Shown here one piece after another: positions 12,701 through 21,353 of a DNA stretch of 64,000 bases (the first letter of the stretch is position 1; every line of letters starts with the position of its first letter). The notes under the pieces are model-generated. The model did no database searches and was not told the origin of the DNA. It worked only from the letters and a program-made list of their open reading frames with translations. The stretch lies in IMG/VR virus record IMGVR_UViG_3300032312_001958; one strand, 5' to 3'. Origin of the DNA: a virus (taxonomy: Duplodnaviria > Caudoviricetes). The translations under genes and the position numbers were made by a program.

Positions 12701-12775
12701 TGGTACCCCCGTCTGGACTCGAACCAGAAATAACTGCTTAGAAGGCAGTGGGTATATCCCTTTACCTACAGGGGC
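12701..12775 (-). tRNA. tRNA-Arg(UCU) with encoded CCA
   Basis: GCCCCTG/CGGGGGT acceptor, ACTGC-CT-TCT-AA-GCAGT anticodon arm, TCTGG-TTCGAGT-CCAGA T arm, ACCA end. Confidence 0.95.
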
Positions 12776-13424: not shown

Positions 13425-14645
13425 ATGAAATTCAACCAAGTTACAAATGCGGGTGATAAAAAAATTACCAGAGGATATGGTATGAAAATGCACCCTATTC
13501 ATAAAAGAATGAGAATGCACCATGGAATTGACATTCCAGTATCGACAGGTCATGACATTTATGCAATTGCGGATGGTGTAATTATCGATAGTGAAATTAG
13601 AGGAGACGCTTGTGGAGGTACTATAAAAGTTTCTCACGGAGTTGTAAACGGTAAAAAATTATACACTAGATTTTGTCACTGTAGTAAACTTTTAAAAAAC
13701 AAAGGTGACATTGTTAAAAAAGGAGATGTCATTGCAAAATCAGGTGGAGGTAAAGGTGACCCAGGCCGAGGTGGGTCCACGGGTCCACATATTCATTTTG
13801 AAGTTTACGAAAATGGAAGTACTGTTAACCCAATGCCTTATTATAAAAATTCTGTAGGTGGGGAACAAACTGAGTTACCGAGTGAAGTTGATTTGGACAA
13901 ATATAAAGATGAGTTAGATATGGACACAGGTGATACAAAAAAAACATCAAGACAAGTTGCTAAAGATTTAATAAAAAAATTATTTGGAATAGATAAAAAT
14001 TCGTCTATTGAAAATGAGGTTGTAAATGAAATATTTAGAGTTAGAGAAATTATAGAAGAGCAAATTCCGACTTTTAACATTAACACAGGTAGTAATAATA
14101 ATAATAATAATAATGACGGTAAAACTTGCGGACCGTATGACCCTAATTCACTACCCGTTAAACCATGTACTTCAAGAGTTGCAAATGGTAACGTGATTAC
14201 ATATACAGGGTCAGATGTTATTGCTCAAGACACTGGCACTATTACGGGTGTCACTAAAGGAAGTTATACTCAGGCAATAAAAATTGGTAATACCGCTTAT
14301 TATTGGAATGGTAGCTTAGATAAACAAATGGGTGTTAATATAAATAAGGGTGATAAATTAGGTATGACAGGGTCAGATAAAAAATTAATTACCCAACCTT
14401 ATAGTTCACAAACTCCAAATAAGACTCAAACTTCTACTCCTTCTAAAAATGATGGAAAGACAGTAAATCCTTTATCTCAAACCTCAAGTGACTCTAGAGG
14501 TCAGGCTAAAGATTACGTTAAAAATATTATTAACACATTAACAGGTACTCAAACACAAGCCCCAACTACAAAAACGGAATCAATTGAAAAATTAAAACCT
14601 TTAATTGAAAACGAATTAAAAAGTTTTAAAAAATTTATAAAATGA
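13425..14645 (+). CDS. M23 family metallopeptidase followed by tags and a degenerate M23-like domain
   Basis: HHGID (HxxxD), TRFCH, GGSTGPHIHFEV..NP (HxH). Confidence 0.88.
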   Translation: MKFNQVTNAGDKKITRGYGMKMHPIHKRMRMHHGIDIPVSTGHDIYAIADGVIIDSEIRGDACGGTIKVSHGVVNGKKLYTRFCHCSKLLKNKGDIVKKGDVIAKSGGGKGDPGRGGSTGPHIHFEVYENGSTVNPMPYYKNSVGGEQTELPSEVDLDKYKDELDMDTGDTKKTSRQVAKDLIKKLFGIDKNSSIENEVVNEIFRVREIIEEQIPTFNINTGSNNNNNNNDGKTCGPYDPNSLPVKPCTSRVANGNVITYTGSDVIAQDTGTITGVTKGSYTQAIKIGNTAYYWNGSLDKQMGVNINKGDKLGMTGSDKKLITQPYSSQTPNKTQTSTPSKNDGKTVNPLSQTSSDSRGQAKDYVKNIINTLTGTQTQAPTTKTESIEKLKPLIENELKSFKKFIK

Positions 14646-15379
14646 CAGGTAATTACAAAGTTAAAGCCCCGATAGGAGGTGTGGGAATTAGACAAAAGGA
14701 TACTTCAGATAAAGGAATTTTATTTGAGGTTACGGATGGTAATGATTATTCAGTGTACCCATGTTTACCTGGTATTGTGTCAAAAATTGACGATGAAGAA
14801 GTAACAATTAAACATAAAGATTATGTTGGTAAAGACTTTATTTCAATATATGAGATTGATGGTAAAATTAAAGTAAAAGAAAAACAAGAAGTTACTCAGT
14901 CAACTGTAATTGGTAAAACTGATGAAGAAGTAATTTTTAAAGTTAAAGATGGTGGTTCATATACTAGTGCTAAAGATTTCATAGGTAAAGAATTTGGTAA
15001 GGCAAAAGAAACTACATTAACATCAAAACAAAAGGCAAGATGTATTGCTCGAAGTATTGTTGGATTACCGGCTAAAGCCTTTGGTGTTGACGAATACGAC
15101 CCATGCGCTGAGTTTTACGGGGAAAAATCTAAGAAACCATCTGAACCAGTTGATACTGAAATAAAAAAAGATAAGAAAAATAATAATGGGGACAATGATG
15201 GGAGAGAAAAATATAAAGATATTGACCCAAATAAATCATTACCTGACGAGACAGGTGGAGAAGAGGAAGAAGATGAACCAACTTTATTAGATAGAGGAGT
15301 TAAATTGATTGGGTCGGTTACAGAGTCTAAAGAATTAAATGAAGAGATATCAAGGATAAAAGAATTATTAAGACTATAA
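14642..15379 (+). CDS. Degenerate, probably inactive M23-like domain protein with C-terminal tag
   Basis: VYPCLPGIV..VTIKH..SIY..VKEKQEV...IGK without Zn ligands; ends LNEEISRIKELLRL. Confidence 0.6.
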   Translation: MTGNYKVKAPIGGVGIRQKDTSDKGILFEVTDGNDYSVYPCLPGIVSKIDDEEVTIKHKDYVGKDFISIYEIDGKIKVKEKQEVTQSTVIGKTDEEVIFKVKDGGSYTSAKDFIGKEFGKAKETTLTSKQKARCIARSIVGLPAKAFGVDEYDPCAEFYGEKSKKPSEPVDTEIKKDKKNNNGDNDGREKYKDIDPNKSLPDETGGEEEEDEPTLLDRGVKLIGSVTESKELNEEISRIKELLRL

Positions 15380-15385
15380 TTTGTT

Positions 15386-15790
15386 ATGTTTGATAAAGAA
15401 CAAATAAAAAGACTTAAAGAATTATTGTCTCAAATGGGATTTGGTAATGAGGATATTAAATCAGAGATGAGATATTTAAAAAAACATTTATAAAATTTAC
15501 CTGAAGAAATTATATTATATAGAATTATAAGTGTTGATAACAAAGAAGATATTAATACTAAATTACCTGGGTCTCACTACAGTCATTCTAAAAAAGATTT
15601 AATTAGTTCTCATAATTTTACCACAGGGTATGGTGAAAAAAAATTCTTAATAACCGTAAAGGCTAAAAGAAATCAGATTGATTTTTTTTCAACACTTGAA
15701 AATAATATATTGTATCCTAACGAACAAGAAATTACCTTAAAAAATAAAGGTAAGGGTGTTGAGATAACGTCTATAAAAGAAATAAAATAA
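15386..15790 (+). pseudogene. R-S-E-type ADP-ribosyltransferase-like gene interrupted by an in-frame TAA at 15491-15493
   Basis: Manual translation MFDKEQIKRLKELL...KKHL*NLPEEIILYRII...GSHYS...YPNEQEITLK; 135 codons in one frame. Confidence 0.6.
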
Positions 15791-15810
15791 AGGGACCTAA
15801 GTCCCTTTAT
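15787..15810. terminator. Bidirectional terminator between the ART-like gene and tmRNA
   Basis: ataaagggac-ctaa-gtccctttat. Confidence 0.85.
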
Positions 15811-15814
15811 TATT

Positions 15815-16207
15815 TGGTGGAGATGCCGGGGGTCGAACCCGGGTCCAAATAAGTAAGACATAAAACACTACACGTTTAGGTCATTGTTTTTCTAAACAAT
15901 CCGAAACTTCACAATTCCCTTATTTTATAGTGGTTCGGTTTACTGAGAACTAATCCTCCACTTCGTTTCTTTTTGGGTAGAAACCACACCACAACTACGA
16001 CTTCTGTTGCAAGGTTGTATGTCTGCCGACCCCTAGTAGGTTAATTCTAAATTAAGCTACAGATACTTCTTCAGTACGGATTAAACCGATTGTAGAAAGT
16101 TTGTTGATAACGTTGCCGTTTATAATTTGAATCAGTTTAACGGAGTTAACTCAGCTCCGACGTGCGTTTTATGGCGTATCATACCTGTCAAAGCCAAAAA
16201 CATCCCC
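15815..16207 (-). ncRNA. ssrA: tmRNA; predicted tag (A)GNVINKLSTIGLIRTEEVSVA at 16117-16052
   Basis: 5' GGGGATG..GGCTTTGAC pairs with 3' CATCTCCACCA including a G3.U pair; T arm CCGGG-TTCGACC-CCCGG; 393 nt; ATAAAC-GGC resume context. Confidence 0.93.
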
Positions 16208-16276
16208 ATAAATCAAAGAACTATTGTGTAAAGATATAAATATATTCTTACTTATACAAGTATTTATTAAAAAAAT

Positions 16277-17359
16277 ATGAAACTTTACGAAGCATTAAAA
16301 AAATTTATTCAGGGTACGGCCGATGAATGGGACGTAAGGAGGAGTGATGATAACACTAGAATAGGTAGAGTGAATCAAAATAGTTTAGGTAAATCGTTAG
16401 TTACATTAACATTTTATGAAGAGGAATTTGCAAAAATTTTTTTGGGGGACAATTCCGAATCTGATAATAACTCCTATTATTTCAATGTAGCATTTAATAG
16501 AAGGGGATATTATGGAGGTTCAGTATTTGTCGACGCTCATTATTTTGGGGATGATGAGTGGAAATATGGCGCCTGTTGGTGGTATTTTAATGAAGATAAC
16601 AGAAATTTATTTTTATCAATTTTAAAAATACTTAATCCGGGATTAGTTGAACTAGATGATAATGGAAAACCTGATGACGAGGCGTTTCAATTTTTACTAA
16701 ATAAATATACTGATGAAATTGAACAAATTAATTACGAATACGCTGAACTTTATGATGAGGCATTAGTTGTTGGTTTAAGGGAGTATGTTTTAAAAAAAAC
16801 TTGTGATGTATTTTCAGAATTTGGAATTTATGAGAAAGATTGTGCCCGTCAATACTTAACAACAGTTTCGGTATTAATGTCTTTATGGAAAATGACTGGT
16901 ACTGATGAAGACTCAAATGTTTTAGATTTATTACATAATTTAGCAATACAAAGAAATTTAATAATTGATGAAGATTTATATGAAGATTATTACTCATATT
17001 TTGACGAAAAAAACTTTGACTCAGAATCATTTAATAGAACTGTAGAAAGACAATTAGAAAAAATAAAAGACAAAATTGATGAGGAAATAGATGAAGGTAC
17101 ATTACAAGATAGTATTAAAATACATAATCAATTATCAAAATTAGGTTATAAGTTTGGTAGGTGGTATAGTTTACCTGACCAAAAACATTTTAATAAAATT
17201 GGAAAAAAGAACGAAAAATTTAAGTTACTTAACGTAATTGGGGGAAAAATAGTATTCAATAGGTTAAATCCTGACAATGGAATAGCACAGTCCGCAATGG
17301 GACCCGAAGATTTTTTTAATTATTTATACCATCCAGAATTGTTTGAATCAAAAAAATGA
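16277..17359 (+). CDS. Acidic, aromatic-rich hypothetical protein
   Basis: 360-aa ORF, TATTTAT 9 nt upstream. Confidence 0.7.
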   Translation: MKLYEALKKFIQGTADEWDVRRSDDNTRIGRVNQNSLGKSLVTLTFYEEEFAKIFLGDNSESDNNSYYFNVAFNRRGYYGGSVFVDAHYFGDDEWKYGACWWYFNEDNRNLFLSILKILNPGLVELDDNGKPDDEAFQFLLNKYTDEIEQINYEYAELYDEALVVGLREYVLKKTCDVFSEFGIYEKDCARQYLTTVSVLMSLWKMTGTDEDSNVLDLLHNLAIQRNLIIDEDLYEDYYSYFDEKNFDSESFNRTVERQLEKIKDKIDEEIDEGTLQDSIKIHNQLSKLGYKFGRWYSLPDQKHFNKIGKKNEKFKLLNVIGGKIVFNRLNPDNGIAQSAMGPEDFFNYLYHPELFESKK

Positions 17360-17373
17360 TTATCTTTGTCCTT

Positions 17374-18204
17374 ATGGATAAAAATATAGAATTTCTTAAA
17401 ACAGTATTATCAATTCCAACTCACACTTATCATGAAGATAGGATGATTGATTTTTTAATTGATTATTTAAGTGAAAAAAAATACCCTTTTAAAATTGATG
17501 AGTTGGGTAATATATACGTAACAAAAGGACTAATTTCAGAAAACGAATTTTATCCTTGTGTCGTTGCTCATACTGATACTGTACACCCTATTGACACTAT
17601 CAATATTAGAGAAGAACAACGTAAAGATTCCAAAGGGAATTTAAATTTTAGTTTGAAAGCTTATAATGATGAAGGAGAACCTACAGGGATTGGGGGTGAT
17701 GATAAATGTGGAGTATTTGCTTGTTTACAACTTTTAGAAGAATTTGAAGTTTTAAAAGTCGCATTTTTTGTGTCTGAAGAAGTTGGTTGTATTGGCTCAA
17801 AACAGGCTGACCCTGTATTTTTTAATGATGTAGGGTACGCAATTCAATTCGATGCTCCTGATGATTATATGGTTACAGAATATTGTTTTGGTGTAAAAAT
17901 GTTTGAAACTGATTCTCCGTTTCATACTACAGCTAAAACAGTATTAACTGAAAACATGTTATCAGAACCAAGATTTATGCAACATCCTTATACAGATATT
18001 TGGCAATTAAAACAAAAATTTGATTTTTCATGTATCAATCTTTCTGTTGGTTATCACTCGTACCATACAAAACACGAATATGTGGTTGTAGATGAAGTTT
18101 TTGCAGGTATTGAATCAGGTAAAAAATTAATTCAAGAGTTGGGAAATACAAAATATGTTTATAAACATATTCCTCGAGACTTAACAAAAGGATTTTTTAA
18201 TTAA
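17374..18204 (+). CDS. M20/M28/M42-clan zinc peptidase
   Basis: GNIYV.KG, VAHTDTV, GGDDKCG, SEEVGCIGS, QFD, GYHSYHT..E; TATCTTTG promoter at 17361-17368. Confidence 0.88.
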   Translation: MDKNIEFLKTVLSIPTHTYHEDRMIDFLIDYLSEKKYPFKIDELGNIYVTKGLISENEFYPCVVAHTDTVHPIDTINIREEQRKDSKGNLNFSLKAYNDEGEPTGIGGDDKCGVFACLQLLEEFEVLKVAFFVSEEVGCIGSKQADPVFFNDVGYAIQFDAPDDYMVTEYCFGVKMFETDSPFHTTAKTVLTENMLSEPRFMQHPYTDIWQLKQKFDFSCINLSVGYHSYHTKHEYVVVDEVFAGIESGKKLIQELGNTKYVYKHIPRDLTKGFFN

Positions 18205-18207
18205 AAT

Positions 18208-18234
18208 AAAAAAGGGGGTTTATTCCCCCTTTTT
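18208..18234. terminator. Terminator hairpin overlapping the clpC stop codon
   Basis: aaaaaggggg-tttatt-cccccttttt. Confidence 0.7.
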
Positions 18235-20262
18235 CTTTTTCCCTTTTTTAGTTGTTTTATTTTTTGTAAGGATAACATCTTCATCTTTAATTGAAATATT
18301 GTAGGATTCATTAATTTCAATATTATTCTTTAACACTTCATCCGACACAAAATCTTCAATCTTTTCTTGTATTGCTCTTTTTAATGGTCTTGCGCCATAT
18401 ACCTCGTCAAATCCAACTTTAGAAATATATTCAATAACTGAATTATCAAATGTAATATCGTAACCAAGTTTAACTAACCTATTTGTTAATTTTGATACCT
18501 CAACTAAAACAATTTTTTGAATGTCTTCGTCTTGTAATGTGTTGAATATTATAATTTCATCTAACCTATTAATAAACTCAGGGGCAAAATAGTTCTTTAA
18601 CTCTTTAGTAAGAATTCCTTTTTTAGCTTCTTCATTTTTATAGACATTTTTTGATGAATCAAAACCAATTCCAGCCCCAAAGTCTTGTAGTTTTTTAACA
18701 CCAATATTTGAAGTCATAATTATTAAACAATTCTTAAAATTAATCTTACGGCCAAAACTATCAGTCATATATCCTTCGTCTAAAAGTTGAAGTAACGCTG
18801 AAAAAATATCTTTATGTGCTTTCTCAACTTCATCAAACAACACTACTGAATATGGTTTAGTTTTTACTTGTTCAGTTAATTGTCCTCCCTCGTCATAACC
18901 CACATATCCAGGAGGTGAACCAATCAATCGAGATACTGAGTGTTTTTCTTGGAATTCACTCATATCTACCCTTATTAGACTATCTTCACTTCCAAATATT
19001 TGTTTTGCCAATTCTTTGGCCAATAAAGTTTTACCTACACCTGTTGACCCTAAAAATATAAATGAACCAATTGGTTTGTTTGGGTCTTTAATGCCTAATC
19101 GATTTCTACGAATAGACTTTGCAATTTTGATAACCGCTTCTTTTTGACCTATTACAGACTTGTTAAGTTCTTCTTCTAAATTAATTAAAACATTTTTATC
19201 GTCTAAACTTAATTTATTTAATGGGATTTTTGTCATGGTTGAAACCACATCATAAACTAATTCCTCAGGTACGTCTTTTCTATTATGTAACAAATCCTCC
19301 TCAAATAACTTCTTTTCAATGTCTAAAAGATTTAAAACTTTTTTTTCTTTGTCCCTTAAACTAGCGGCTTCTTCATAATTTTGTTTTTTAACAACTGATA
19401 ATTTTTGTTGTTTAATTTCCATCGCTTCTCTTTTTAATTCCTCAATAATCTCAGGGTTTTTAATATCAACTTGAGCTCTTGCTCCGACCTCGTCTAAAAT
19501 GTCAAAAGCTTTATCCGGAAATTCTCTATCCGTAATATATCTCTCCGCTAAATCAACACATATTTGTAATATATTATCTGAAAATATTACTTTGTGGTAG
19601 TTTTCATATTTGTCTTTAACGTTTTTAAGAATTTGAAAAGTCTCCTCTTTAGTTGATGGACTGACTATTACTTTTTGAAATCTTCTATCTAACGCTCCAT
19701 CCTTCTCAATTTGTTTTTTATACTCGTCTAAAGTTGTTGCTCCGATACATTGTATTTCACCTCTTGATAATGCAGGTTTTAATATGTTAGATGCGTCAAG
19801 AGACCCTGAAGCGTTACCGGCACCTACAATTGTATGAATTTCATCAATAAATAAAATCACATTTGGATTAGCTTGAATTTCTTCCAAAATGACTTTTAAT
19901 CTTTCTTCAAATTGTCCACGATACTTGGTACCCGCAACAATTGAATTGATTTCTAGAGATAGAATTCGTTTATCTAAAAGATTTCTTGGGCAGTCGCCCT
20001 CAAATATTTTCATAGCCAATCCCTCAACAATTGCAGTTTTACCACAACCAGGTTCACCTATGATTATTGGGTTATTTTTCTTTCTTCGAGATAAAATTTG
20101 AGCAATTCTAATAATTTCGTTTTCTCGACCAACCACAGGGTCTAATTTACCTTCCTCTGCCAATTTAATTAAATCTCGACTAAAATTATCTAAAACAGGA
20201 GTATTACTATTAGTCTCCACTTTTTTTGGATTTTTCATCCCGTCATCAACTGAATCTGTCAT
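18220..20262 (-). CDS. clpC: ClpC-like AAA+ ATPase lacking the Clp N-domain
   Basis: GKLDPVVGRE, GEPGCGKT, AGTKYRGQFEER, UVR-like QNYEEAASLRD, GSTGVGKT, GSPPGYVGY, GIGF loop, GARPL. Confidence 0.92.
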   Translation of the reverse strand: MTDSVDDGMKNPKKVETNSNTPVLDNFSRDLIKLAEEGKLDPVVGRENEIIRIAQILSRRKKNNPIIIGEPGCGKTAIVEGLAMKIFEGDCPRNLLDKRILSLEINSIVAGTKYRGQFEERLKVILEEIQANPNVILFIDEIHTIVGAGNASGSLDASNILKPALSRGEIQCIGATTLDEYKKQIEKDGALDRRFQKVIVSPSTKEETFQILKNVKDKYENYHKVIFSDNILQICVDLAERYITDREFPDKAFDILDEVGARAQVDIKNPEIIEELKREAMEIKQQKLSVVKKQNYEEAASLRDKEKKVLNLLDIEKKLFEEDLLHNRKDVPEELVYDVVSTMTKIPLNKLSLDDKNVLINLEEELNKSVIGQKEAVIKIAKSIRRNRLGIKDPNKPIGSFIFLGSTGVGKTLLAKELAKQIFGSEDSLIRVDMSEFQEKHSVSRLIGSPPGYVGYDEGGQLTEQVKTKPYSVVLFDEVEKAHKDIFSALLQLLDEGYMTDSFGRKINFKNCLIIMTSNIGVKKLQDFGAGIGFDSSKNVYKNEEAKKGILTKELKNYFAPEFINRLDEIIIFNTLQDEDIQKIVLVEVSKLTNRLVKLGYDITFDNSVIEYISKVGFDEVYGARPLKRAIQEKIEDFVSDEVLKNNIEINESYNISIKDEDVILTKNKTTKKGKKKKGE

Positions 20263-20339: not shown

Positions 20340-20582
20340 ATGTCGATTAAAAGTGAAAAAATTGAAGGGACTAAAATAATTTGTGAGATAGAATCATCTA
20401 ATCTTTCTAAGACAGACTATGACACAATAAGTAAAAAATTAATTGTGGAATTTAAAAATGGTGCGTTATATGAATACGAAAATGTTCCCCATGAATTATA
20501 CACACAGTTCAGAATGTCAGAATCTCAAGGTAGTTTCTTCAATAAAAGTATTTCAAAAAAATTTAAATATAAAAAATTGTAA
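20340..20582 (+). CDS. KTSC domain protein
   Basis: SSN....YD....L.VEFKNG..YEY.NVP...Y......S.G.FFNK.I. Confidence 0.9.
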   Translation: MSIKSEKIEGTKIICEIESSNLSKTDYDTISKKLIVEFKNGALYEYENVPHELYTQFRMSESQGSFFNKSISKKFKYKKL

Positions 20583-20603
20583 AATTTTAAGTATTTATTA
20601 TTT

Positions 20604-21353
20604 GTGAAATTAGATAAAGAAATACTTCAAAGTTTTAATGTGAAAGATGAATTATGTCCTGACATTTGGGAGGGACAAGGTGAATCTGCAAAATTAAAAC
20701 CTAACGTAAGAAAAAAACTACTTCAAATTGCCGAATTATTTAGAGAATTTGTTGGAGTTAATTTTTTTGTTGACGACATTGTTCTAATGGGTTCATTGGT
20801 TAATTATAATTGGTCTAAATTTTCAGATGCCGATTTACATATAATAGTCGACTTTAGTGAGTTTGACCAAGATAAATTAGATGTTTATCAAGAATTATTT
20901 GAGGTTAAGAAAAAAATATTTGCACAGATTCATAATATAAAAATTTACGGTTATGACGTTGAATTGTACATTCAAGACAAATCTACTGAGGCAGTAAGTT
21001 CAGGTGTCTATTCAGTCTTGAATGATGAATGGATATCTTTCCCCAAAAAAGAAGGGTTTCAACTCGATAAGAAATTATTAAAACAAAAAATATCACAGTG
21101 GGTTAACATTATTGATGGTGTTGAGGATATTGTAAAAGATTTAGACGATGAAGAAGCAATTGAATTAGTTAAAAGTTACAAGAAAAAACTAAAAAAATTT
21201 AGAACTTGTGGTTTAGAAAAGGGAGGGGAGTATTCATATGAAAATATAGTATTTAAATATTTGAGACGTTCTGGTCACATCGGTAAATTACACAATTTAC
21301 AAACAAAAATTGAAGACGAATCTCTGTCTTTAAAAGAAAATTTAAAATTTTAA
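20604..21353 (+). CDS. Pol-beta superfamily nucleotidyltransferase-like protein
   Basis: LMGSLVNYNWSKFSDADLHI (GS..DxD) and VELY; GTG start 5 nt after TATTTAT. Confidence 0.7.
   Translation: MKLDKEILQSFNVKDELCPDIWEGQGESAKLKPNVRKKLLQIAELFREFVGVNFFVDDIVLMGSLVNYNWSKFSDADLHIIVDFSEFDQDKLDVYQELFEVKKKIFAQIHNIKIYGYDVELYIQDKSTEAVSSGVYSVLNDEWISFPKKEGFQLDKKLLKQKISQWVNIIDGVEDIVKDLDDEEAIELVKSYKKKLKKFRTCGLEKGGEYSYENIVFKYLRRSGHIGKLHNLQTKIEDESLSLKENLKF

What the first reader, a model, noticed from the sequence alone, without database searches (positions are those of the whole stretch)
15815..20262. tmRNA with a long non-canonical tag next to an N-domain-less ClpC and a peptidase: a private tag-and-degrade module?
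The predicted tag is (A)GNVINKLSTIGLIRTEEVSVA, 21 encoded aa ending VSVA, whereas typical bacterial tags are about 10 aa ending (Y/F)ALAA. Within 4.5 kb lie a ClpC-like ATPase that keeps the ClpP-docking GIGF loop but lacks the adaptor-binding N-domain, and an M20/M28-clan peptidase. Inference: the phage rescues stalled ribosomes (for example after host tRNA or mRNA cleavage defences) and routes products to its own unfoldase, or away from host ClpXP. No smpB or clpP is visible in this window.
Basis: partly seen in the sequence, partly recalled or inferred. Interest (0 to 1): 0.7.

Follow-up and report, generated by a model that had tools for sequence, protein, structure and literature searches.

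The report
Phage tmRNA with a private tag
A large freshwater phage of Bacteroidota carries its own ribosome-rescue RNA (tmRNA) whose 22-residue tag is conserved in this phage family, is found in no bacterial genome searched and is unlike the host's tag. It always lies beside a trimmed ClpC unfoldase and an aminopeptidase, but nothing yet shows that these two read the tag.

Summary
Window 15815-16207(-) is a full-length tmRNA (Rfam 128.5 bits against a cut-off of 47; ARAGORN agrees) that encodes (A)GNVINKLSTIGLIRTEEVSVA. Next to it lie a 680-aa ClpC with no N-domain that keeps the ClpP-docking FGAGIGF loop, and a clan-MH aminopeptidase-like enzyme. The window has no smpB or clpP.

New results:
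- The phage belongs to the published bS21-encoding freshwater jumbo phages of Bacteroidetes. The main text of that paper does not mention tmRNA.
- The tag frame is conserved in 51 related loci (18 peptide variants, 21-22 aa). Substitutions are codon-periodic (pN/pS 0.40 in frame, 0.70 and 2.15 out of frame).
- Two patterns built from the tag match 0 of 185,579 bacterial species genomes; the looser one matches 65 viral contigs.
- Flavobacterium tmRNAs encode GENNYALAA.
- tmRNA and ClpC are neighbours in every relative with enough flank, whether the search starts from ClpC (52/52) or from the tag (31/32 within 6 kb).

Limits on the "private module" reading:
- The pair sits at the edge of a roughly 15-kb collinear core block.
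- Other huge phages carry ClpC-type ATPases without tmRNA, or with it 360 kb away.
- The tag's VA end resembles known ClpX degrons.

Verdict: a real phage tmRNA, a new variant of a known kind. ClpC coupling is plausible, unproven and testable. The scan had also noted this stretch in an overlapping window.

The parts
15815..16207 (-). tmRNA (ssrA) gene, one-piece, 393 nt, CCA encoded
   Evidence: ARAGORN. Rfam RF00023 at 128.5 bits over model positions 1-374. Acceptor stem pairs 7/7 with G3-U70. Relatives show compensatory changes in the acceptor and T stems.
16052..16117 (-). Tag reading frame: resume codon GGC, 21 codons (GNVINKLSTIGLIRTEEVSVA) and TAA
   Evidence: ARAGORN places the coding part at positions 91-156 of the gene. 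The frame is conserved in 51 loci with 18 peptide variants. pN/pS is 0.40 in frame against 0.70 and 2.15 in the other frames; variable sites by codon position are 14/9/20. The bases before the resume codon are shared with Flavobacterium tmRNA.
15786..15811 (-). Intrinsic-terminator-like hairpin plus T run, 3 nt after the CCA end
   Evidence: 11 pairs followed by TTATTTCTTT. The sequence is shown.
16208..16243 (-). Conserved upstream region of the tmRNA (candidate promoter), with TATTTAT at 16236-16242
   Evidence: A near-identical ~36-nt stretch lies upstream of the tmRNA in most relatives. TATTTAT sits 27-31 nt before the 5' end in 38 of 50 loci. Promoter function is inferred, not shown.
16277..17359 (+). 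360-aa protein of unknown function, transcribed divergently from the tmRNA
   Evidence: No Pfam, PHROG or NCBIfam hit. Present next to the tmRNA in most relatives at 23-97% identity. Not detected in some of the more diverged relatives (ClpC 67-69%). The AF2 model has pLDDT 86.5 but no fold match. The family has 465 clusters at 50% identity.
17356..18204 (+). Single-domain clan-MH (M42/M20-like) metallo-exopeptidase candidate, 282 aa
   Evidence: phrog_4191 'peptidase' at 8e-36. Sub-threshold M20 and M42 hits. H72, D74, D115, E141, E142, D166 and H237 are invariant in 54 relatives. Foldseek probability 1.00 to TET aminopeptidases and PepT.
18220..20262 (-). ClpC-type double-ring AAA+ unfoldase lacking the N-domain, 680 aa
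   Evidence: One-stretch alignment to ClpC residues ~151-785. Walker A/B motifs and pore loops are invariant in 55 unique relatives, all 674-687 aa. Its best cellular match found is Flavobacterium ClpC, at 56-58% identity, in open frames of 849-882 aa.
18661..18681 (-). ClpP-docking loop FGAGIGF (residues 528-534)
   Evidence: It aligns with the ClpP loop region of S. aureus ClpC. FGxG[VIL]GF is invariant in 55 relatives.
20340..21353 (+). Conserved neighbours on the other side of ClpC: an 80-aa ORF and a 249-aa Pol-beta-type nucleotidyltransferase
   Evidence: Both are present in 26/26 full-flank relatives. The GS...D.D motif is invariant. There is a weak profile hit to the DrrA AMPylation domain, E 0.02. 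Any role with the tmRNA is unknown.

Best explanation
This is a working phage-encoded tmRNA of a roughly 300-kb freshwater myophage that infects Bacteroidota (the bS21-phage family).

Shown:
- The RNA has every sequence feature of a one-piece tmRNA.
- It is conserved across the family with structure-preserving changes.
- Its tag frame evolves like a translated, constrained peptide.

Inferred mechanism:
1. The RNA is transcribed from its own conserved promoter region and charged with alanine by the host AlaRS through G3-U70.
2. It is delivered by SmpB, which is host-supplied in this lineage and phage-encoded in some relatives.
3. It enters ribosomes stalled on broken or stop-less mRNAs, which should be plentiful during infection, and frees them.
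4. It adds the 22-residue tag AGNVINKLSTIGLIRTEEVSVA.
5. The tag most likely acts as a degron that feeds ClpP-based proteolysis. Its hydrophobic V-A-COOH end is of the type ClpX-class enzymes read. The conserved inner part (KLSxxGLIRTEE) suggests a second contact, either an adaptor or another unfoldase.

The neighbouring ClpC without N-domain would dock on host ClpP, and the aminopeptidase fits a protein-turnover and amino-acid-recycling role. They may take part, but exclusive coupling to the tag is not shown.
For: - tmRNA identity and integrity.
- Family-wide conservation of the gene and of its upstream region.
- Peptide-level constraint on the tag: 18 variants, all 21-22 aa and in one frame, with conservative replacements; pN/pS 0.40 in frame against 0.70 and 2.15 out of frame.
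- Phage-specific tag: 0 hits in 185,579 bacterial species genomes for two degenerate patterns, 65 viral contigs for the looser one.
- Predicted hosts are Bacteroidetes (PMC9723584). Their tmRNAs encode GENNYALAA and share the pre-resume sequence with the phage RNA.
- SmpB is encoded by two of three complete relatives.
- Flavobacterium genomes each carry one ClpP.
- The ClpC motifs and the ClpP loop are invariant.
- Precedents: phage tmRNAs occur in 2.3% of phage genomes, with 'tag and recycle host proteins' already proposed (PMC9004378). Huge phages carry tmRNA and SmpB (PMC7162821). A long divergent tag matches a different protease in Mycoplasma (PMC8403727).
Against: - There is no expression, tagging or degradation data for this RNA.
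- The closest complete relative (G005, 294 kb) and the window lack SmpB, so function depends on the host SmpB accepting the phage tRNA-like domain. This was not tested.
- A 22-residue tag with a conserved interior is more than a simple ClpX degron needs, so the degron reading may be incomplete.
- The tmRNA region contains other constrained RNA elements, so part of the conservation could be RNA-level. The codon periodicity argues against this for the tag.
Confidence: 0.55

Rival explanations
1. Private tag-and-degrade module. The phage tag is a specificity switch read mainly by the phage ClpC without N-domain, docked on host ClpP or on phage ClpP in some relatives. The clan-MH aminopeptidase trims the resulting peptides to amino acids. 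Stalled products, largely host proteins, are thereby recycled outside host ClpXP control.
For: - The tag is unlike the host tag and is phage-only.
- Its interior is conserved at the peptide level.
- tmRNA, peptidase and ClpC are neighbours in 52/52 loci (search seeded from ClpC) and 31/32 loci (seeded from the tag), down to 67% ClpC identity and despite insertions.
- ClpC is the only AAA_2-family ATPase in five large relatives, which also have no Lon_C domain.
- The FGxG[VIL]GF loop is invariant.
- One relative encodes ClpP.
- The peptidase's nearest folds are all exopeptidases acting on short peptides.
- The Mycoplasma tag-Lon switch is a precedent.
Against: - The linkage is confounded by general synteny: the block continues for about 10 kb of core genes beyond ClpC.
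- A ClpC without N-domain, 58% identical, occurs in LR745206.1 with no tmRNA and a different gene context.
- Of five further jumbo or huge phages with Clp ATPases, only one has a tmRNA, 360 kb away.
- Published bS21 phages often carry Clp genes near the head genes, in a study that does not mention tmRNA.
- In B. subtilis, ClpC needs its N-domain and an adaptor for activity (established knowledge). Autonomous activity of this form is therefore not assured.
- There is no recognition data.
Confidence: 0.25
2. The tag is not a degron. The phage needs only ribosome release. The long tag either keeps rescued products away from host ClpXP, to avoid saturating it or to spare phage proteins, or gives them another fate such as aggregation, membrane association or a signal. 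ClpC and the peptidase serve unrelated proteostasis or assembly roles.
For: - The tag differs from GENNYALAA in length and lacks the YALAA end.
- It is moderately hydrophobic (GRAVY +0.50) with no net charge.
- ClpC-type genes in jumbo phages mostly occur without tmRNA.
Against: - Strong conservation of the last two residues (V-A invariant) and of the interior is not expected for a mere spacer.
- A hydrophobic alanine-terminated C-terminus is the classic degron type.
- All characterised tmRNA tags are degrons (established knowledge).
Confidence: 0.15
3. The element is a non-functional relic, an integration-site fragment, or a decoy that only titrates SmpB.
For: Phages often carry ssrA fragments as attachment sites. 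A molecule consisting only of the tRNA-like domain exists in mycobacteriophage DS6A (PMC4131195).
Against: - The gene is full length, with all model positions matched.
- The tag ORF is intact in all 51 loci.
- The stems show compensatory changes.
- It shares only ~65% mean column identity in a mixed alignment with Flavobacterium tmRNAs, so it is not a copied attB.
- Some relatives keep it even when it is interrupted by a group I intron.
Confidence: 0.03

Closest known systems
Bacterial one-piece tmRNA (SsrA, Rfam RF00023), in particular Flavobacterium tmRNA
   Same: Same length class (393 nt against 395-397 nt). Shared features are the tRNA-like domain with G3-U70, the GGC resume codon preceded by TTATAAAC, and a full-length Rfam match.
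   Different: The tag has 21 encoded residues ending VSVA, against 9 residues ending ALAA. The mixed phage/host alignment shows only ~65% mean column identity. CCA is encoded. The gene is carried by a phage.
Known phage tmRNAs: mycobacteriophage Bxz1 group, Bacillus phage G, the two-piece tmRNA of Methylophilales phage Melnitz and pelagimyophages, huge phages of Al-Shayeb et al. 2020
   Same: A phage-borne ssrA in large phages, in some cases with phage SmpB. The idea of tagging proteins to recycle amino acids is already published (PMC4131195, PMC9004378, PMC7162821).
   Different: This one is a one-piece tmRNA in Bacteroidota phages. Its tag matches no bacterial genome searched and is shown here to be under peptide-level constraint. 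Its position next to ClpC is fixed across the family. The main text of the paper that describes this phage family does not mention tmRNA.
Mycoplasma/Mesoplasma long ssrA tag paired with Lon (Gur and Sauer 2008; PMC8403727)
   Same: A long (27-aa), divergent tag co-evolved with a protease other than ClpXP. This is the logical template for a 'specificity switch'.
   Different: That pairing was shown by experiment and arose because ClpXP was lost. Here the host keeps ClpP, and no protease-tag pairing has been tested.
ClpC of Firmicutes (S. aureus, B. subtilis; PDB 6em9, 3j3s) and Flavobacterium ClpC
   Same: D1, a short coiled-coil M-domain, D2 and the ClpP-docking loop all align in one stretch. 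Identity to Flavobacterium ClpC is 56-58%.
   Different: It lacks the ~150-residue N-domain that binds MecA/McsB-type adaptors and phospho-arginine. All 55 family members share this truncation.
M42 TET aminopeptidases and M20 peptidase T
   Same: The catalytic-domain fold matches (Foldseek probability 1.00, TM by query 0.53-0.68). The order of metal-ligand motifs H.D / D / EE / D / H is the same.
   Different: It has only 282 aa and no inserted dimerisation/lid (PDZ-like) domain. It scores below the Pfam gathering cut-offs.

Membership tests
tmRNA (RF00023) | Full-length match to the covariance model above the curated score | tested here: met
   128.5 bits against 47, model positions 1-374, E 6.7e-50.
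tmRNA (RF00023) | tRNA-like domain: 7-bp acceptor stem with the G3-U70 alanine identity pair, a T-arm and a 3' CCA | tested here: met
   GGGGATG pairs with CATCTCC at 7/7 positions. G3-U70 is invariant in 19 sequences. The T-stem is 5/5 paired, with four compensated variants.
tmRNA (RF00023) | Internal short open frame that starts at a resume codon and ends in a stop | tested here: met
   GGC plus 20 codons plus TAA. The frame is conserved and codon-periodic in relatives. The upstream context is shared with host-type tmRNA.
tmRNA (RF00023) | SmpB partner available | tested here: inconclusive
   There is none in the window or in the 84-kb near-identical contig. Two of three complete relatives encode SmpB. 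Host SmpB is presumed.
tmRNA (RF00023) | Alanylation and trans-translation activity | not testable with these tools
   Needs biochemistry or in vivo tagging.
ClpC (class I Hsp100/Clp ATPase) | Two AAA+ modules with intact Walker A/B motifs and pore loops | tested here: met
   Pfam AAA, AAA_lid_9, AAA_2 and ClpB_D2-small. The motifs are invariant in 55 relatives.
ClpC (class I Hsp100/Clp ATPase) | Short ClpC-type middle (coiled-coil) domain rather than the long ClpB one | tested here: met
   It aligns to ClpC as a single ungapped stretch, but to ClpB as two split stretches. The motif QNYEEAASLRDKE is conserved.
ClpC (class I Hsp100/Clp ATPase) | N-terminal Clp_N repeat domain (adaptor and phospho-arginine binding) | tested here: not met
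   The alignment starts at ClpC residue ~151. There is no PF02861 hit. No upstream frame is available. All relatives are 672-702 aa.
ClpC (class I Hsp100/Clp ATPase) | ClpP-docking (I/V/L)GF loop in D2 | tested here: met
   FGAGIGF at residues 528-534. FGxG[VIL]GF is invariant.
Clan MH metallopeptidases (M20/M28/M42) | Catalytic-domain fold | tested here: met
   The model (pLDDT 79.9) matches TET aminopeptidases, PepT and deblocking aminopeptidase at probability 1.00.
Clan MH metallopeptidases (M20/M28/M42) | Co-catalytic metal ligands and the Glu-Glu motif, in order | tested here: met
   H72/D74, D115, E141-E142, D166 and H237 are invariant in 54 relatives. Assignment of each residue to a metal site is inferred from motif order.
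Clan MH metallopeptidases (M20/M28/M42) | Score above the Pfam family cut-off (M20 or M42) | tested here: not met
   22.8 bits against 24.6 (M20) and 21.3 bits against 23.2 (M42). It is therefore filed at clan level only.

The most novel reading that the evidence does not exclude
The bS21 jumbo phages of Bacteroidota run an orthogonal degradation channel. Their tmRNA writes a phage-only 22-residue degron. A ClpC stripped of its N-domain, and so free of adaptor control, reads it on the host's ClpP, and a dedicated aminopeptidase finishes the job. Translation products stranded by infection would thus become amino acids for the phage, outside host ClpXP control.
Probability: 0.25. Interest if true: 0.75.

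Novelty: new variant of a known kind. Interest (0 to 1): 0.5.

Why it matters
Phage tmRNAs are known, but what their tags do is essentially unstudied. Here the tag is clearly not the host's. It is conserved as a peptide across a widespread and abundant group of lake phages, and it sits beside the only unfoldase those phages encode. That turns a vague idea, that phages tag and recycle stalled products, into a concrete pair of components that can be tested with reporter fusions and purified proteins. If the pairing holds, it would be a viral case of tag-protease co-evolution, and a compact orthogonal degron-unfoldase pair of possible use in Bacteroidota genetics. If it does not hold, the finding remains an ordinary though well-characterised phage tmRNA.

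Tried and rejected
- Alternative tag frames. The other two frames are closed or do not end in LAA.
- Hidden SmpB or ClpP in the window. tblastn with phage-family SmpB and ClpP found nothing. Pfam profile searches of the near-identical 84-kb contig found nothing.
- ORF360 as a disguised SmpB, adaptor or enzyme. It has no family hits. The Atlas feature search gave nothing. The confident model matches no fold (Foldseek: none at E<=1e-3; VIA best Z 5.5 on generic helices; Atlas TM <0.3). Its function stays unknown.
- An apparent ORF360-peptidase fusion in some relatives. This was an artefact of my ORF-extension script; they are two separate ORFs.
- Origin of ClpC through genome contigs. The pattern-based retrieval returned mostly Actinobacteria at 44-50% identity and was uninformative. 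A direct search of Flavobacterium genomes gave 56-58%.
- Host handle through bS21. The protein is too short and nothing was confirmed.
- A guessed 5' ClpC DNA pattern gave no match; this was a wasted call.
- TATTTAT as a genome-wide enriched motif. Its count is not above shuffles (67 against 58 +/- 7). Only its fixed position upstream of the tmRNA is conserved.
- The 'phages' database has no DNA-level relative of the window apart from the ClpC region.

Full report
**Observation.** ARAGORN finds a tmRNA at window 15815-16207 on the minus strand with tag GNVINKLSTIGLIRTEEVSVA*. Rfam's tmRNA model matches the same coordinates over its full length at 128.5 bits, against a gathering score of 47, E 6.7e-50. 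The gene starts GGGGATG and ends CATCTCCACCA. This gives a 7/7 acceptor stem with the G3-U70 pair that specifies alanine charging, and an encoded CCA. A hairpin plus T-run terminator follows 3 nt later.

- ClpC, 18220-20262(-), 680 aa. It aligns in one stretch to S. aureus and B. subtilis ClpC residues ~151-785, E ~1e-212. It has both AAA+ rings, the short ClpC-type M-domain and the loop FGAGIGF, but no N-domain. There is no Clp_N hit, and no room upstream for one.
- Peptidase, 17356-18204(+), 282 aa. It is a clan-MH enzyme, described below.
- A 360-aa ORF at 16277-17359(+), between the peptidase and the tmRNA. It has no database hit.

**Tag frame.** Four lines of evidence fix the frame.
1. 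The Rfam alignment puts the consensus resume codon on GGC.
2. Flavobacterium tmRNAs have the same TTATAAAC|GGC context, and there GGC opens GENNYALAA.
3. The other two frames are closed.
4. Fifty-one related loci hold 25 distinct tag DNAs encoding 18 peptides, all 21-22 residues long and in this frame.

Changes among those tags fall mainly on third codon positions: variable sites by codon position are 14/9/20. pN/pS is 0.40 in frame, against 0.70 and 2.15 in the other two frames. G1, N2, G11, R14 and the terminal V-A never change, and the replacements elsewhere are conservative. The tag is therefore translated and its sequence matters.

**What phage this is.** The window has ~30% G+C. It has no close DNA relative among deposited phages, but IMG/VR holds hundreds of related contigs. 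Complete relatives are 294-322 kb. The window carries a bS21 gene on the opposite strand among the head genes. This is the hallmark of the freshwater bS21 jumbo myophages predicted to infect Bacteroidetes, such as Flavobacteriia, described by Chen et al. 2022 (PMC9723584). That paper mentions 'chaperones and Clp protease', but the word tmRNA does not occur in its main text.

**Is the tag private?** Two degenerate patterns built from the tag, NKLS[TA]xGLIRTEE and GLIRTEExxVA-stop, match nothing in one genome each of 185,579 bacterial and archaeal species. The second pattern matches 65 viral contigs. By contrast, the pattern for GENNYALAA-stop hits at least 120 genomes, nearly all Bacteroidota. 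ARAGORN confirms that tag in five Flavobacterium and two Sphingobacteriia tmRNAs. The phage tag is therefore phage-specific and unlike that of the predicted host phylum. Length alone is not unprecedented: Mycoplasma tags have 27 residues and are read by Lon (PMC8403727). The phage tag's V-A-COOH end is close to the LVA variant of the E. coli tag, which ClpXP degrades well (established knowledge). It is thus less 'non-canonical' than it first looks.

**Linkage.**
- Seeded from ClpC, all 52 related loci with at least 4.5 kb beyond clpC contain the tmRNA. The order is NTase, orf80, ClpC, peptidase, orf360, tmRNA.
- Seeded from the tag, 31 of 32 loci with enough flank have ClpC within 6 kb, and the last has it at 6.6 kb. 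This holds down to 67% ClpC identity, in loci where extra genes are inserted and orf360 is no longer detectable.
- The same test on neighbouring genes shows that the collinear block runs on rightwards through at least window 30549, towards the head genes, and breaks only to the left of the tmRNA. The linkage therefore cannot be told apart from core-genome synteny.
- Outside the family it fails. LR745206.1 (635 kb) has an N-domain-less ClpC 58% identical to this one, in a different gene context and with no tmRNA. Of five further jumbo or huge phages with Clp ATPases, only LR756508.1 has a tmRNA, 360 kb from the ATPase.

**ClpC.** All 55 unique family members are 674-687 aa. Walker A/B motifs, pore loops, the M-domain motif and FGxG[VIL]GF are invariant. 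The 120 nearest proteins in a 5.8-billion-protein set are 597-702 aa, all but two of them 672-702 aa, and none has Clp_N among its precomputed domains. The best cellular match found is Flavobacterium ClpC: 56-58% identity over residues ~10-660, in open frames of 849-882 aa. The phage gene thus looks like a host-type ClpC that has lost its N-domain. It is the only AAA_2-family ATPase in five large relatives, and they encode no Lon_C domain. ClpP is encoded by only one of those five relatives, whereas each of five Flavobacterium genomes has one. If the phage ClpC acts as a protease, it would therefore dock on host ClpP.

**Peptidase.** H72xD74, D115, E141-E142, D166 and H237 are invariant in 54 relatives. 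The AlphaFold model (pLDDT 79.9) matches M42 TET aminopeptidases, peptidase T and deblocking aminopeptidase at Foldseek probability 1.00. All of these are exopeptidases that act on short peptides. The phage enzyme lacks their inserted lid/dimerisation domain and scores just below the Pfam cut-offs, so it is filed at clan level only.

**ORF360.** The family is diverse, with 465 clusters at 50% identity. The model is confident (pLDDT 86.5) but matches no known fold. Longer members carry no recognisable domain either. Its function is unknown. An apparent fusion to the peptidase was a script artefact.

**SmpB.** The window and its 97%-identical 84-kb contig have none. Two complete relatives (322 and 321 kb) encode a typical SmpB far from the tmRNA, and a third complete relative (294 kb) does not.

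**Interpretation.** The secure part is a functional phage tmRNA with a phage-specific, peptide-constrained tag. This is a new variant of a known kind. Phage tmRNAs occur in 2.3% of phage genomes, and the 'tag and recycle' idea is already published (PMC9004378; PMC7162821; PMC4131195).

The most likely mechanism is ribosome rescue during infection plus a degron that feeds ClpP-based proteolysis (confidence 0.55). The stronger claim, that the phage ClpC is the dedicated reader and the aminopeptidase completes a private recycling line, fits every observation. But it rests on linkage that general synteny also explains, and on analogy with Mycoplasma. I put it at about 0.25. A non-degron role for the tag gets about 0.15, and a relic or decoy about 0.03.

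**Earlier notes of this scan.** The same stretch had been noted in an overlapping window. Notes on bS21 and on a TATTTAT motif gave useful leads. The bS21 note led to the published phage family. The TATTTAT motif is not enriched genome-wide, but it holds a fixed position 27-31 nt upstream of the tmRNA in 38 of 50 relatives.

Noticed in passing
L044:12103-12333 and L030:10061-10291 (relatives; not in the window): In some relatives the tmRNA gene is interrupted in the T-loop by a ~230-nt group I intron (Rfam Intron_gpI, 72.6 and 70.7 bits against a cut-off of 50). BLAST breaks at tmRNA position 372 suggest the same in L016, L017, L043 and L052.
   Followed up: partly
L060:16465-16858 and L076:18310-18709 (relatives): A full-length GOLLD RNA (RF02032, 317 and 330 bits) lies 0.8-1.6 kb beyond the tmRNA on the opposite strand in two relatives, and L060 also has tRNA genes there. 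The window has no GOLLD match at the gathering threshold.
   Followed up: partly
L096 (G004:187024-187425), L097 (G003:6823-7203), L098 (G007:167371-167898): Two complete 321-322-kb relatives encode a typical SmpB, and one 209-kb relative encodes a 241-aa ClpP. All three genes lie far from the tmRNA-ClpC block.
   Followed up: partly
window 20604-21353 (+): A 249-aa Pol-beta-type nucleotidyltransferase with an invariant GS...D.D motif. It gives a weak profile hit to the DrrA/SidM AMPylation domain (E 0.02). It always lies next to ClpC, and its target is unknown.
   Followed up: partly
window 16277-17359 (+): The 360-aa protein has a confident model (pLDDT 86.5) but no fold or family match. The family has 465 clusters at 50% identity, and some members carry 100-260-residue N-terminal extensions.
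   Followed up: yes
LR756508.1 414804-414915 (record coordinates) and L001:20260-20347: Two short tRNA-sized elements in other huge phages match only the ends of the tmRNA model. One is 112 nt at 58 bits, over the cut-off. The other is 88 nt at 22.8 bits, and ARAGORN calls it a tRNA with a 2-nt anticodon. They may be molecules made only of the tRNA-like domain, like the one in mycobacteriophage DS6A.
   Followed up: no
window 12701-12775 (-): tRNA-Arg(TCT), 3 kb from the tmRNA (ARAGORN; Rfam 56.3 bits). It is also present in the near-identical IMG/VR contig.
   Followed up: no
window 13425-15379 (+): An M23 peptidase (E 3e-25), followed by a 245-aa protein with a degenerate M23-like hit. Both lie in the variable region to the left of the tmRNA and are conserved in only a few relatives.
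   Followed up: no
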